A stretch of 64,000 bases of DNA from Patescibacteria group bacterium (GTDB lineage: Bacteria; Patescibacteriota; UBA1384; 2-12-FULL-50-11): the NCBI GenBank assembly GCA_038058635.1, contig JBBUAP010000001.1:197190-261189 (forward strand), read 5' to 3'. This document shows, piece by piece, positions 5,983 through 53,547 of this stretch. Each line of letters opens with the position of its first letter. The stretch's first letter is position 1. The notes under the pieces are model-generated. The model was not told where the DNA came from, searched no databases, and saw only the letters and a program-made list of their open reading frames with translations. The position numbers and the translations under genes were made by a program.

Positions 5983-5986
5983 ATTG

Positions 5987-6059
5987 TGGGCCCGGATGGA
6001 CTCGAACCATCGATATCTGAGACATAAGCTCAGCGCATTAGCCGCTATGCTACGGGCCC
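5987..6059 (-). tRNA. tRNA-Ile (anticodon UAU)
   Basis: Hand-folded cloverleaf: acceptor GGGCCCG/CGGGCCC, D stem GCAT/ATGC, anticodon stem CTGAG/CTCAG with loop CTTATGT, T arm GATGG-TTCGAGT-CCATC, discriminator A. No encoded CCA. Confidence 0.8.
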
Positions 6060-8578: not shown

Positions 8579-8657
8579 TTGAGCTACTGCTCGCAAAAAC
8601 GATCTGCCATCTGGCGGATCGTTTTTGTTAGGAGCTCAATTTTGCTAGAGTCAGAGT

Positions 8658-9350: not shown

Positions 9351-9423
9351 GTGCCGGTGGGAAGAATTGGACTTCCGACCTGACGCTTATGAAACGTCCG
9401 CTCTAACCACTGAGCTACACCGG
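9351..9423 (-). tRNA. tRNA-Met/Ile2 (anticodon CAU), elongator type
   Basis: Acceptor GCCGGTG/CACCGGC, anticodon stem GACGT/GCGTC with loop TTCATAA, T arm GGAAG-TCCAATT-CTTCC, discriminator A. Confidence 0.85.
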
Positions 9424-9453
9424 CATGCTTGTAATTTTAATGGATTAACTCAA

Positions 9454-9479: not shown

Positions 9480-9568
9480 TCTCTATTTCTTGCGCCCCTC
9501 GACTTCCCTCGACAAAGCTCGGGACAGGTCGCTCGGGGTTACGCAATTTCACAGTGTTCAATTGCTAG

Positions 9569-9893
9569 TAGCGGGGGTTAGATTCGAACTAACGACCTCG
9601 TGGTTATGCGTACCATTGCAACTTTCATTGCTCCAATTTCGTCGGTTGATGAAAATGGATTTTTGGTCTGGACTGTCCCTTGGCCCGTAAGGTTGTTACG
9701 GGTCTCCACCTACCAGTCTCTACACCTTTCCGCCAGTTGGCGGACTTGGCTCGGGATTGCCTCGGCTTACACCAGGGGTTTCCCCGAATTTGATGGATAA
9801 TCTTCTTAATAGTTACCTACTAAGACGCCCAAGTTCTAAAAATACTGTTGAGCCACGCGAGCTGACCACTGCTCCACCCCGCTATCAGCCAGT
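9569..9893 (-). tRNA. tRNA(CAU) interrupted by a group I intron (exons 9861-9893 and 9569-9608)
   Basis: 5' exon AGCGGGG-TG-GAGC-AGTGGTCA-GCTC-G-CGTGG-CT. 3' exon CATAA-CCACG-AGGTC-GTTAG-TTCGAAT-CTAAC-CCCCGCT-A. Acceptor and anticodon stems pair across the intron. The 1:72 pair is intact, so this is elongator Met or Ile2. Confidence 0.8.
9609..9860 (-). ncRNA. group I intron (IC3-like, Azoarcus/Anabaena tRNA-intron type), 252 nt, no ORF
   Basis: Conserved cores read on the minus strand: CAAATTCGGGGAAACC, GCCGAGGCAATCCCGAGCCAAG, GGAAAGGTGTAGAGACTGG, ACAGTCCAGACC. The exon nucleotide before the 5' splice site is U, and the intron ends in G. Confidence 0.75.
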
Positions 9894-10163
9894 ATACCCA
9901 ATCGAACCCAGTCAGTCCAGCCAAAAGAGCTAAGAGCCTGTTTAAAATCTAACCGCAACATTAAGACTAAAAAAATACTGCTTGCCGGTTAAAACAAACA
10001 CATTTCCGCTGCAAATCACTCATTCTTCCTCACCGTATCCCGATACGGTTCATCGGTCTTCGTAATTTTCGCTCGAAATGTGTTCGTTTTTCCTCGGCAC
10101 TAGATTATAAACAGGCTCTAATTAATCGTTGATTTAAGTCGAGTTTTACTCTAGAATTCAGTA

Positions 10164-53037: not shown

Positions 53038-53547
53038 ATGGCCAAGAAACCAACCAGTCCAAAACTAACCCACTTCGAAAAAGAACTAGCCGCGGAGCAC
53101 GAGGCCAAGCTGCGCCTGGCGGCGGAGTACGCTAACTACCAAAAACGAGTTGAGGTTGAAAAGGATGCCTTAAGAAAGCACGCCAGTCGCGACTTGCTGG
53201 AAAAACTTTTCCCCATTTTTGATAATTTTTACCGGGCCAGTACACATGCGCCGGAAGTCAGTTTGGAAGATCTGCCAAATCTGACCGAAAGCGATTACCA
53301 GAAAATCTTTAACTATTTTTCTGGCCTGCGTTTGATTGAAAAACAGCTCGAACAAGTTTTGGGCGAAGCCGGACTAAAGCGGATTCCGACTGCTGACCAA
53401 CCATTTGATCACAATCTCCACGAAGCCATCTCTCACGAACCCAGCGTCGAAGTCCCGGCCGATCATATCATTGCTGAAATCGAAGCCGGCTGGACAATCG
53501 ACGACACGGTTATTAAACCCGCTAAAGTCCGGGTTTCCAAAGGGTAG
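53038..53547 (+). CDS. grpE: nucleotide exchange factor GrpE
   Basis: Coiled-coil N-terminus and the C-terminal beta domain PFDHNLHEAI...IKPAKVRV. Confidence 0.85.
   Translation: MAKKPTSPKLTHFEKELAAEHEAKLRLAAEYANYQKRVEVEKDALRKHASRDLLEKLFPIFDNFYRASTHAPEVSLEDLPNLTESDYQKIFNYFSGLRLIEKQLEQVLGEAGLKRIPTADQPFDHNLHEAISHEPSVEVPADHIIAEIEAGWTIDDTVIKPAKVRVSKG

What the first reader, a model, noticed from the sequence alone, without database searches (positions are those of the whole stretch)
9569..9893. Group I intron (Azoarcus/Anabaena IC3 type) splitting a tRNA(CAU) gene
The minus strand holds a complete cloverleaf tRNA only if 252 nt (9609-9860) are removed from the anticodon loop, between U33 and C34. 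The intervening sequence carries the diagnostic group I cores CAAATTCGGGGAAACC, GCCGAGGCAATCCCGAGCCAAG, GGAAAGGTGTAGAGACTGG and ACAGTCCAGACC. These closely match the Azoarcus pre-tRNA-Ile and Anabaena pre-tRNA-Leu introns. The exon nucleotide before the 5' splice site is U and the intron ends in G. No ORF is present, so it is presumably self-splicing. tRNA group I introns are classically cyanobacterial/proteobacterial, so one in this CPR-like genome, adjacent to a second uninterrupted CAU tRNA, is notable. I initially suspected tmRNA here.
Basis: partly seen in the sequence, partly recalled or inferred. Interest (0 to 1): 0.7.

Follow-up and report, generated by a model that had tools for sequence, protein, structure and literature searches.

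The report
Self-splicing intron in initiator tRNA
A 242-base group I (self-splicing) intron sits in the anticodon loop of what looks like the initiator methionine tRNA gene of a groundwater Patescibacteria (CPR) bacterium; it is real, but it belongs to an intron class and host group already described.

Summary
On the minus strand, exon 1 is 9883..9851, the intron is 9850..9609 (242 nt, not 252) and exon 2 is 9608..9569.

Evidence that it is a group I intron:
- Rfam Intron_gpI hits at 50.3 bits (cut-off 50).
- A model built only from 11 other introns at this tRNA site hits at 103.6 bits.
- All helices P1-P9a are present, and covariation across 10 homologues supports them.
- The splice sites are U(-1), wobble-paired to G in P1, and a terminal G.
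- Five uninterrupted genes in related metagenome contigs are identical (73/73) to the predicted ligated exons.

The host tRNA is initiator-type: it has A11:U24, and sister genes carry C1xA72. It is unusual in having A1:U72 and only two G:C pairs in the anticodon stem. The organism is a Patescibacteria bacterium near Berkelbacteria.

The intron has no ORF. It is present only in the window and one close relative, and absent from five of the six syntenic relatives checked.

Site 33/34 of tRNA-fMet is a classical intron site. tRNA group I introns in Patescibacteria, including Met(CAU) 33/34, are published (Nakagawa 2026; Williams 2020). One nuance: this intron has an IC3-type core, whereas the complete-genome survey found no IC introns in the phylum.

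This is a new member of a known kind, of low interest.

The parts
9851..9883 (-). tRNA(CAU) exon 1 (positions 1-33: acceptor 5' strand, D arm, anticodon-stem 5' strand, C32, U33)
   Evidence: ARAGORN intron mode. Identical to the first 33 nt of uninterrupted genes in L122, L125, L129, L130 and L134.
9609..9850 (-). Group I intron, 242 nt, IC3-type core, no ORF. Starts CAACAG and ends GGUACG, with the terminal G at 9609.
   Evidence: Rfam RF00028 50.3 bits over 9848..9649. Model R1 103.6 bits over 9800..9662. Exactly this stretch is missing from the intron-less alleles.
9569..9608 (-). tRNA(CAU) exon 2 (anticodon CAU through acceptor 3' strand; discriminator A at 9569; no encoded CCA)
   Evidence: The identical uninterrupted gene in L122 scores 68.9 bits with Rfam tRNA.
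9848..9853 (-). P1 5' strand: exon GCU (9853..9851) plus intron CAA (9850..9848). U9851 is the 5' splice-site U.
   Evidence: Pairs with UUGGGC. The G-C, C-G, U.G and C-G pairs are invariant in 10/10 homologues. Recovered in the MFE fold.
9827..9832 (-). Internal guide sequence UUGGGC (P1 3' strand). Its UG can also pair with the CA that starts exon 2 (P10).
   Evidence: P10 is inferred.
9805..9824 (-). P2 hairpin CUUAGUAG-GUAA-CUAUUAAG (GNRA loop)
   Evidence: All 8 pairs show compensatory changes among homologues. Present in the MFE fold.
9792..9797 (-). P3 5' strand UCCAUC
   Evidence: Pairs with GGUGGA at 9710..9705. 100% of cells paired; 3 of 6 pairs have double changes.
9750..9788 (-). 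P4-P5 domain: P4 UUCGGGG/UCCCGAG, J4/5 AAA, P5 9778..9760, J5/4 CAA
   Evidence: Rfam alignment, R1 alignment. The P5 tip is weakly defined.
9729..9744 (-). P6 hairpin UCCGCC-AACU-GGCGGA
   Evidence: 5 of 6 pairs with double changes
9714..9718 (-). P7 5' strand GACUG within GUAGAGACUGG (guanosine-binding helix)
   Evidence: Pairs with CAGUC at 9675..9671. 100% paired; the fifth pair covaries (GC, UA, AU, CG).
9705..9710 (-). P3 3' strand GGUGGA (forms the P3/P7 pseudoknot)
9684..9702 (-). P8 hairpin CCCGUAA-CAACC-UUACGGG
   Evidence: 4 of 7 pairs with double changes
9671..9675 (-). P7 3' strand CAGUC within GGGACAGUCCAGACC
9632..9659 (-). P9 hairpin
   Evidence: All 8 pairs show double changes among homologues.
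9618..9631 (-). P9a hairpin GCAAU-GAAA-GUUGC (GNRA loop)
   Evidence: 100% paired; 3 of 5 pairs with double changes
9612..9614 (-). P9.0 3' strand GGU, pairing with ACC at 9667..9665, just upstream of the terminal G
   Evidence: 93% paired, but nearly invariant, so little covariation evidence
9891..9919 (-). Promoter-like site TGGACT-17 nt-TATACT, ending 7 nt before the tRNA 5' end
   Evidence: Consensus scan. The same motif sits in front of the intron-less genes in L130 and L135. Its function is inferred.
9351..9424 (-). Second, uninterrupted tRNA(CAU), elongator-type (C11:G24). Context, not part of the intron.

Best explanation
Window 9883..9569 (minus strand) is a tRNA(CAU) gene, most likely the initiator tRNA of a Berkelbacteria-related Patescibacteria bacterium. 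A 242-nt ORF-less group I intron with an IC3-type core interrupts it between U33 and C34.

Inferred mechanism (from the established chemistry of the family):
- The precursor is transcribed from a promoter directly upstream of the tRNA.
- The intron folds into P1-P9a, including the P3/P7 pseudoknot.
- P1 pairs exon GCU and intron CAA with the guide UUGGGC, placing the U.G wobble at the 5' splice site.
- A free guanosine bound in P7 attacks that site.
- The terminal G (9609) then takes the same pocket. The CA that starts exon 2 takes over the guide's UG (P10), and the exons are ligated.
- The product is a 73-nt tRNA.

The intron carries no endonuclease gene. It occurs only in this lineage and one close relative, so it is most simply a recent gain, or a rarely retained element, that now persists passively.

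Shown here: the sequence, the structure, the covariation, the exact boundaries and the patchy distribution.

Inferred: the catalysis, in vivo splicing, the promoter, the initiator role and the direction of gain or loss.
For: 1. Rfam RF00028 scores 50.3 bits against a cut-off of 50, E = 8e-10.

2. Model R1 was built from the cores of 11 other 33/34 tRNA(CAU) introns, with the window and L126 left out. It hits 9800..9662 at 103.6 bits. That is on a par with a Bartonella tRNA-Arg(CCU) intron (108.9 bits) and above the Azoarcus-type introns (72-85 bits).

3. Covariation over 68 pairs in 10 homologues from five phyla:
- 89.8% of cells are paired, against 31-46% when the partners are slid.
- 34 pairs have double-sided changes, against 7-15 in the slid controls.
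- The covariation score is 0.375, against 0.075 or less.
- 0 of 500 shuffles reach the observed values.

4. The predicted ligated exons are identical (73/73) to uninterrupted genes in L122, L125, L129, L130 and L134. FtsH lies next to the gene in L122, L129 and L134, and DivIC in L122, L125, L130 and L134. That identical sequence scores 68.9 bits as a tRNA.

5. U(-1) and the terminal G fit only the 33/34 register.

6. A diverged copy (L126: 273 nt; 83% identity over a 395-nt match that includes both exons) sits at the same site in another sample and keeps the helices.

7. Initiator features: A11:U24, and an acceptor stem and D arm close to E. coli tRNA-fMet (that sequence is from my own knowledge). 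Sister genes with the same D arm and anticodon arm carry C1xA72 or C1xU72. The neighbouring CAU tRNA has the elongator-type C11:G24.

8. Taxon.

9. Distribution against FtsH identity: present in the window and in L126 (about 92%). Absent at 90% (L135), 85% (L122), 76% (L129) and 73% (L134).
Against: - The Rfam score is only just above its cut-off. Williams 2020 notes that this model has no bacterial seed sequences, which may explain it.
- No splicing experiment or transcript data were available.
- The P5 tip and P10 are weakly defined.
- The tRNA departs from the bacterial initiator rule at two places. Position 1:72 is a Watson-Crick A:U pair instead of a mismatch, and 29:41 is U:A, so only two of the three G:C pairs are present. 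The initiator assignment is therefore not certain.
- Only 64 kb of the genome was seen, so a second, intron-less initiator gene cannot be excluded.
- The subgroup label IC3 rests on core similarity and architecture, not on the subgroup covariance models.
Confidence: 0.9

Rival explanations
1. The interrupted gene is an elongator tRNA-Met or a tRNA-Ile2(CAU, lysidine), not the initiator.
For: - A1:U72 is a Watson-Crick pair, and only two of the three anticodon-stem G:C pairs are present.
- Nakagawa 2026 labels the two Patescibacteria 33/34 cases 'Met', not 'fMet'.
- Non-initiator CAU tRNAs can carry 33/34 introns (L066, L069).
Against: - A11:U24 is initiator-specific. The adjacent CAU tRNA has C11:G24.
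- The same D arm and anticodon arm occur with C1xA72 (L131) and C1xU72 (L121, L123, L133).
- Position 1:72 in this family is never G:C or C:G.
- A tRNA-Ile(UAU) is present, which lessens the need for an Ile2(CAU) tRNA.
Confidence: 0.13
2. The intron is decaying or inactive, and the split gene is a pseudogene. A functional copy lies elsewhere in the genome.
For: - Only 64 kb of the genome was inspected.
- The Rfam score is borderline.
- No experimental data exist.
Against: - Every core helix and junction is intact.
- The exons are 100% identical to working-looking genes in relatives.
- The promoter-like site is kept.
- The diverged L126 copy keeps the pairings.
- In relatives the syntenic gene is the only initiator-like gene seen near ftsH.
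- Nakagawa 2026 reports that split and unsplit copies with the same anticodon rarely coexist in one genome.
Confidence: 0.06
3. The element is a true group I intron, but it needs a host protein (a chaperone or maturase-like factor) to splice in vivo rather than being fully autocatalytic.
For: - Many group I introns are helped by proteins in vivo (Hausner et al. 2014, PMC3984707).
- The P5 tip is short and lacks an obvious 11-nt tetraloop receptor.
Against: - Small IC3 tRNA introns (Azoarcus, Anabaena, Synechococcus) self-splice efficiently in vitro. This is established knowledge (Reinhold-Hurek & Shub 1992; Zaug et al. 1993; Ikawa et al. 2000, as listed).
- The Patescibacteria tRNA introns tested by Nakagawa 2026 self-spliced in vitro.
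- L2 and L9a are GNRA loops, as in Azoarcus.
Confidence: 0.12
4. The intron is ancient in this lineage and was lost precisely and repeatedly in relatives, rather than recently gained.
For: - Precise loss is known for group I introns.
- The same site is occupied in many phyla.
- L124, a more distant sister gene with C1, carries a different-looking intron at the same site.
Against: - Among the six syntenic relatives checked at 73-92% FtsH identity, only L126 has it.
- No close relative turned up among 119 GTDB loci.
- The short core does not allow a reliable tree, so direction is unresolved.
Confidence: 0.3

Closest known systems
Group I intron of cyanobacterial tRNA-fMet(CAU), site 33/34 (Biniszkiewicz et al. 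1994 and Paquin et al. 1997, from my own knowledge; the site is listed as classical in PMC13011429)
   Same: - Same insertion site (GGCU|CA...G|CAUAAC).
- Same guide GGGC, P2 with a GNRA loop, same P3-P9.0 core, P9a with a GAAA loop, and a 3' end GGUAxG.
- Sporadic distribution.
   Different: - The host is a Patescibacteria bacterium.
- P3 (UCCAUC/GGUGGA against CCUGUC/GGCAGG) and P8 are rebuilt by compensatory changes.
- The P1 loop is short and has no hairpin.
- There is no PD-(D/E)XK endonuclease ORF, which some cyanobacterial copies carry.
- Core identity is only about 70%.
[quoted passage not shown] Represented here by Burkholderiales homologues L008, L058 and L112.
   Same: - Small ORF-less IC3 architecture.
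- Near-identical J3/4-P4, J6/7-P7 and J8/7 cores.
- GNRA loops on P2 and P9.
- A short 3-bp exon part in P1.
   Different: - Inserted at 36/37, after the anticodon, in tRNA-Ile2.
- Different guide sequence.
- These homologues score 72-85 bits with the 33/34-class model, against 103.6 for the window.
Anabaena/plastid tRNA-Leu(UAA) intron (IC3, site 34/35)
   Same: Same subgroup and general core. Splicing depends on the anticodon-stem context (Zaug et al. 1993, cited).
   Different: - Different tRNA and site.
- By my recollection the cyanobacterial core reads GGUGCAGAGACU. I kept that variant out of the search pattern and did not compare it directly.
Patescibacteria tRNA group I introns (Nakagawa et al. 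2026, PMC13011429; Williams 2020)
   Same: - Same phylum.
- No ORF, same size range.
- Two published cases are Met(CAU) at 33/34 (Microgenomatia).
   Different: - The published Patescibacteria introns were nearly all IA and none IC.
- Their Met(CAU) introns have a different core (GAGGGAAG...CCCUAGAGACU) and share only about 15-21 nt of local similarity with the window's core.
- The window's intron aligns over 142 nt with an intron that the paper labels IC3.
- It scores like bona fide IC3 introns.

Membership tests
Group I intron (Rfam RF00028) | Covariance-model match at or above the curated threshold | tested here: met
   50.3 bits against a gathering score of 50, E = 8e-10, so borderline. 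The independent model R1 gives 103.6 bits.
Group I intron (Rfam RF00028) | Conserved helices P3-P9 with the P3/P7 pseudoknot, supported by covariation | tested here: met
   89.8% of cells paired, 34 of 68 pairs with double changes, slid controls 31-46% paired
Group I intron (Rfam RF00028) | U.G wobble at the 5' splice site within P1, and a terminal G at the 3' end | tested here: met
   U9851 pairs with G of UUGGGC; the U.G pair is invariant in 10/10 homologues. The intron ends in G9609.
Group I intron (Rfam RF00028) | Guanosine-dependent self-splicing | not testable with these tools
   Needs an in vitro transcript with GTP and Mg, or RNA data
Subgroup IC3 | Compact architecture: P2 present, no P5abc, no P2.1, P9.0/P9, GNRA loops on P2 and P9. 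Core sequence shared with the Azoarcus and Anabaena introns. | tested here: met
   Helix map. Scores like the Bartonella Arg(CCU) and Azoarcus-type introns. Aligns over 142 nt with an intron labelled IC3 in PMC13011429.
Subgroup IC3 | Best score with the IC3 subgroup covariance model (GISSD / Group1IntronDatabase) | not tested
   The subgroup models are not available in this tool set
tRNA-fMet 33/34 intron class | Insertion between U33 and C34 of a tRNA(CAU) | tested here: met
tRNA-fMet 33/34 intron class | Host is the bacterial initiator tRNA: A11:U24 | tested here: met
   G10 A11 G12 C13 / G22 C23 U24 C25. The neighbouring tRNA has C11:G24.
tRNA-fMet 33/34 intron class | Host is the bacterial initiator tRNA: mismatch at 1:72 | tested here: not met
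   A1:U72 is a Watson-Crick pair. Sister genes with the same D arm and anticodon arm have C1xA72, C1xU72 or U1:A72.
tRNA-fMet 33/34 intron class | Host is the bacterial initiator tRNA: three consecutive G:C pairs at 29-31:39-41 | tested here: not met
   U29:A41, G30:C40, G31:C39, so two of three. The same holds in the whole sister group.
Mobile group I intron with homing endonuclease | Endonuclease ORF inside the intron | tested here: not met
   242 nt with no ORF on the intron strand. The antisense ORFs have no Pfam hit.
   No tmRNA from ARAGORN or Rfam

The most novel reading that the evidence does not exclude
This would be an IC3-type intron in a phylum whose tRNA introns were reported to be exclusively non-IC. 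It would have been acquired recently by lateral transfer into the only initiator tRNA gene of a reduced-genome bacterium. That initiator also carries an archaeal/eukaryotic-style A1:U72 pair. On this reading, all translation initiation in the cell depends on a guanosine-requiring ribozyme, which could act as a checkpoint coupling initiator supply to the GTP/guanosine pool.
Probability: 0.1. Interest if true: 0.5.

Novelty: new member of a known kind. Interest (0 to 1): 0.25.

Why it matters
It mainly matters for annotation. Standard tRNA callers miss this gene: ARAGORN's default mode and the Rfam tRNA model both skipped it. The genome would then appear to lack an initiator-type tRNA.

It adds one data point to two published surveys. 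It shows that IC3-type tRNA introns do occur in Patescibacteria draft genomes: at least six GTDB CPR genomes, plus this window and two metagenome contigs (L124, L126) of unassigned taxonomy, score above 97 bits with the 33/34-class model. That qualifies the 'no IC introns' statement, which was drawn from 95 complete genomes.

The presence/absence pattern among relatives with 73-92% identical FtsH gives a natural system for studying gain or loss of an ORF-less intron.

None of this changes current understanding of group I introns.

Tried and rejected
- **tmRNA:** no call from ARAGORN or Rfam.
- **Homing endonuclease:** there is no room in 242 nt, and the antisense ORFs have no Pfam hit.
- **Close relatives in GTDB species genomes:** None is closer than about 70-80% over the core, so no tree was attempted; the core is too short and too conserved.
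- **Other copies of the intron in the window:** none.
- **Is the P6 hairpin UCCGCC-NNNN-GGCGGA a dispersed repeat?** There are 3 loose matches against 0.13 expected, but the two others are 1-mismatch matches, at 8603-8618 and 53111-53126. I did not inspect them, so I dropped the idea.
- **def/fmt in the window, to judge formylation:** no hit. This is uninformative for a 64-kb piece.
- **Pfam on the 93-aa antisense reading frame in the 481-nt L124 intron:** no hit.
- **Subgroup labels from the paper's supplement for the two Microgenomatia Met introns:** the stored table is cut, so only the main-text statement could be used.
- **Paquin 1997 (PMC179611):** not held in the library.

Full report
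**1. The observation**

The minus strand between 9883 and 9569 reads AGCGGGGUGGAGCAGUGGUCAGCUCGCGUGGCU | 242 nt | CAUAACCACGAGGUCGUUAGUUCGAAUCUAACCCCCGCUA.

- ARAGORN in its default mode does not see a tRNA here, and neither does the Rfam tRNA model.
- ARAGORN in intron mode calls tRNA-Met(cat) with an intron of 242 nt at position 34. The joined exons give a clean 7/4/5/5 cloverleaf.
The tRNA 5' end is 9883, not 9893. The intron is 9850..9609, 242 nt, not 9609-9860 and 252 nt. This is a slip of 10 bases.
- All four quoted motifs are present.
- Both junctions share CA, so three registers would yield the same mature RNA. Only 33/34 puts a U before the 5' splice site and a G at the intron's end.

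**2. It is a group I intron**

Rfam Intron_gpI matches 9848..9649 at 50.3 bits against a gathering score of 50, with E = 8e-10 for the whole window. That is borderline. Williams (bioRxiv 10.1101/2020.01.27.920355) notes that this model has no bacterial seed sequences.

I therefore built an independent test. ARAGORN placed most of the matches inside split tRNA genes, ten of them tRNA(CAU) genes split at 33/34.

I built a covariance model (R1) from the P3-to-P9.0 cores of 11 such introns, leaving out the window and its closest relative. It hits 9800..9662 at 103.6 bits, E about 2e-23, and nothing else in the 64 kb scores better than E = 0.34.

For scale, on other loci R1 gives:

| Intron | R1 score (bits) |
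|---|---|
| Bartonella tRNA-Arg(CCU) | 108.9 |
| Azoarcus-type tRNA-Ile2 introns of Burkholderiales (L008, L058, L112) | 72-85 |
| A tRNA-Leu(UAA) intron (L004) | 76.7 |

**3. Structure**

By eye, and in the minimum-free-energy fold, the intron forms these helices:

| Helix | Sequence |
|---|---|
| P1 | exon GCU + intron CAA with UUGGGC |
| P2 | 8 bp, GUAA loop |
| P3 | UCCAUC/GGUGGA |
| P4 | UUCGGGG/UCCCGAG |
| P5 | short |
| P6 | UCCGCC-AACU-GGCGGA |
| P7 | GACUG/CAGUC |
| P8 | CCCGUAA-CAACC-UUACGGG |
| P9.0 | ACC/GGU |
| P9 | hairpin at 9659..9632 |
| P9a | GCAAU-GAAA-GUUGC |

I projected this map onto an alignment of ten 33/34 introns from Patescibacteria, Cyanobacteria, Nitrospirota and Actinomycetota and counted the pairs:

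| Measure | Observed | Controls |
|---|---|---|
| Cells forming standard pairs | 89.8% | 31-46% with partners slid 1-3 columns |
| Pairs (of 68) with changes on both sides | 34 | 7-15 (slid) |
| Covariation score | 0.375 | 0.075 or less (slid) |
| Shuffles reaching the observed values | 0 of 500 | |

Pairs with compensatory changes: P2 8/8, P9 8/8, P6 5/6, P8 4/7, P3 3/6, P9a 3/5. The P1 pairs G-C, C-G, U.G and C-G are invariant, so they give no covariation evidence, but they are as expected for a conserved splice site.

The structure was derived from the window's own sequence. That favours it over the slid versions on percent paired. The counts of double changes do not suffer from this in the same way.

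**4. The boundaries are independently confirmed**

An exon-1 pattern scan of metagenomes returned 14 loci.

- Five of them (L122, L125, L129, L130, L134) hold an uninterrupted gene identical at 73 of 73 positions to the predicted ligated exons. That sequence scores 68.9 bits as a tRNA with every pair standard.
- L130 comes from the same sample as the window. Its flanks match at 93-100% and exactly the 242 nt are missing. Its DivIC is only 74% identical, so it is a related organism, not the same population.
- Two loci carry an intron at the same site. L126 (another Hainich well) has a 273-nt intron; its 395-nt match to the window, which includes both exons, is 83% identical. L124 has a 481-nt intron with about 290 extra nt in the P1 loop.

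**5. Host and context**

The contig is Hain_H43_01um_R2_51 from ENA ERZ1292632. By its name it comes from the Hainich groundwater project, 0.1-um fraction.

The adjacent FtsH is 100% identical to an NCBI protein of a 'Patescibacteria group bacterium'. The nearest named relatives, at 72-74%, are Candidatus Berkelbacteria. The arrangement divIC - tRNA(CAU) - tRNA(CAU) - ftsH recurs in relatives, with intervening genes in some.

Intron status tracked against FtsH identity:

| Locus | FtsH identity to window | Intron |
|---|---|---|
| Window | - | present |
| L126 | about 92% | present |
| L135 | 90% | absent |
| L122 | 85% | absent |
| L129 | 76% | absent |
| L134 | 73% | absent |

The simplest reading is a recent gain in a narrow lineage. 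Repeated precise loss is not excluded.

A promoter-like TGGACT-17-TATACT ends 7 nt before the tRNA 5' end and recurs in front of the intron-less genes. A terminator-like hairpin lies between the two tRNAs.

**6. Which tRNA?**

The split gene has A11:U24. Its acceptor stem and D arm are close to those of E. coli tRNA-fMet (that sequence is from my own knowledge).

Sister genes sharing the D arm and anticodon arm carry C1xA72 (L131), C1xU72 (L121, L123, L133) or U1:A72 (L128), never G:C or C:G. The neighbouring CAU tRNA has the elongator-type C11:G24. A tRNA-Ile(UAU) is also present.

I therefore read the split gene as the initiator, at about 0.8. Two classical initiator marks are not met: 1:72 is a Watson-Crick A:U pair, and 29:41 is U:A.

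**7. Mechanism (inferred from the family's established chemistry)**

- The U.G wobble in P1 marks the 5' splice site.
- An exogenous guanosine bound in P7 attacks it.
- The terminal G9609 then occupies the same site.
- The CA that opens exon 2 can replace the intron's own CA on the guide's UG (P10), and the exons are ligated.
- GNRA loops on P2 and P9a probably make the tertiary clamps seen in the Azoarcus intron.

None of this was tested here.

**8. Comparison with what is known**

Site 33/34 of tRNA-fMet is listed as one of the well-characterised sites (PMC13011429).

Williams 2020 mapped 5,292 tRNA group I introns in 21 tRNA/site classes. Metagenome assemblies of unnamed phyla were second only to cyanobacteria in frequency.

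Nakagawa et al. 2026 found 22 intron-split tRNA genes in 19 of 95 complete Patescibacteria genomes, two of them Met(CAU) at 33/34. They showed self-splicing for two of the 35/36 introns.

A tRNA group I intron in a CPR genome is therefore no longer notable in itself.

One nuance remains. That paper reports that none of the Patescibacteria tRNA introns were IC.

- The window's intron has the canonical IC3 core.
- It aligns over 142 nt with an intron the paper labels IC3, but over only 15-21 nt with the paper's two Microgenomatia Met introns.
- With R1, the CPR loci fall into two groups. One scores 109-128 bits full-length (L116, L106, L069, L054, L002, L061). The other scores 39-60 bits, often as partial matches, and is probably the published IA-like class.

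IC3-type tRNA introns are thus present in CPR draft genomes, and the window's is one of several. I could not run the subgroup models, so the label is by homology.

**9. Verdict**

It is a new member of a known kind. Interest is low (0.25): useful for annotation and as a small qualification of a recent survey, but not surprising to a specialist.

Noticed in passing
window 9883 and 9570 (tRNA positions 1 and 72); loci L121-L135: The initiator-type tRNA has a Watson-Crick A1:U72 pair, the archaeal/eukaryotic initiator mark. It has only two of the three anticodon-stem G:C pairs (U29:A41). In sister genes sharing the D arm and anticodon arm, 1:72 is C x A, C x U, U:A or A:U, never G:C. A full-text search found no paper linking initiator tRNA 1:72 identity with the Candidate Phyla Radiation.
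   Followed up: partly
window 9931-10119 (between ftsH and the tRNA promoter): A roughly 190-nt near-perfect palindromic hairpin with terminal inverted repeats TTAGAGCCTGTTTAWAATCTA (MFE -73.5 kcal/mol, z = -7.8). It is absent from the same spacer in L126 and L135, has no Rfam match and has no second copy in the window. It may be a MITE-like insertion or a structured RNA.
   Followed up: partly
window 9729-9744 versus the L126 intron: The 16-nt hairpin UCCGCC-ARCU-GGCGGA forms P6 in the window's intron but forms the tip of P5 in the 273-nt L126 intron. L126's P6 is a different, long hairpin. This looks like a module swap between peripheral helices of two closely related introns.
   Followed up: partly
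L126; proteins P0002 and P0004: The FtsH genes of the nearest relatives (88-94% identical) carry an intein of about 430-450 aa (PF14890, PF14528) after residue 236. The window's FtsH has none. In L126 the split tRNA and the intein-bearing ftsH lie side by side.
   Followed up: no
L130, downstream of the intron-less tRNA (about 120-400 nt into the extract): The second tRNA(CAU) looks broken up. Its 5' half ends in the anticodon loop. It is followed by a spacer, a complete different tRNA(CAU), another spacer, part of the 3' half, a further 35-nt insert and the acceptor end. This is either nested insertions or an assembly chimera (contig coverage 6).
   Followed up: no
window 9351-9424: The uninterrupted tRNA(CAU) has the T-loop UCCAAUU, that is, C at position 55 where U (pseudouridine) is nearly universal. 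Relatives have UUCAAUU.
   Followed up: no
window 9484-9568: About 85 nt lie between the split tRNA's 3' end and the terminator-like hairpin. Relatives L130, L125 and L122 lack them; there a hairpin follows the tRNA almost at once. No Rfam match.
   Followed up: no
L124 intron (481 nt), P1 loop: The roughly 290-nt insertion holds a 93-aa open frame on the antisense strand (KAVIHCHDTLPYKSCLAYWSKITGIPVSRFTKPYIKVDKGGNRKYPYGIVRI...). It has no Pfam hit and may be a homing-endonuclease remnant.
   Followed up: partly
L080 (Methanosarcinaceae archaeon MAG, JAIPUR010000020.1): The IC3 core motif also matches a contig binned as an archaeon, and ARAGORN found no split tRNA there. Williams 2020 suspected mis-binning for a similar case.
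   Followed up: no
window 5986-6059: A tRNA-Ile(UAU) gene, also present in L122. It suggests that AUA is read without a lysidine tRNA-Ile2(CAU) in this lineage.
   Followed up: no
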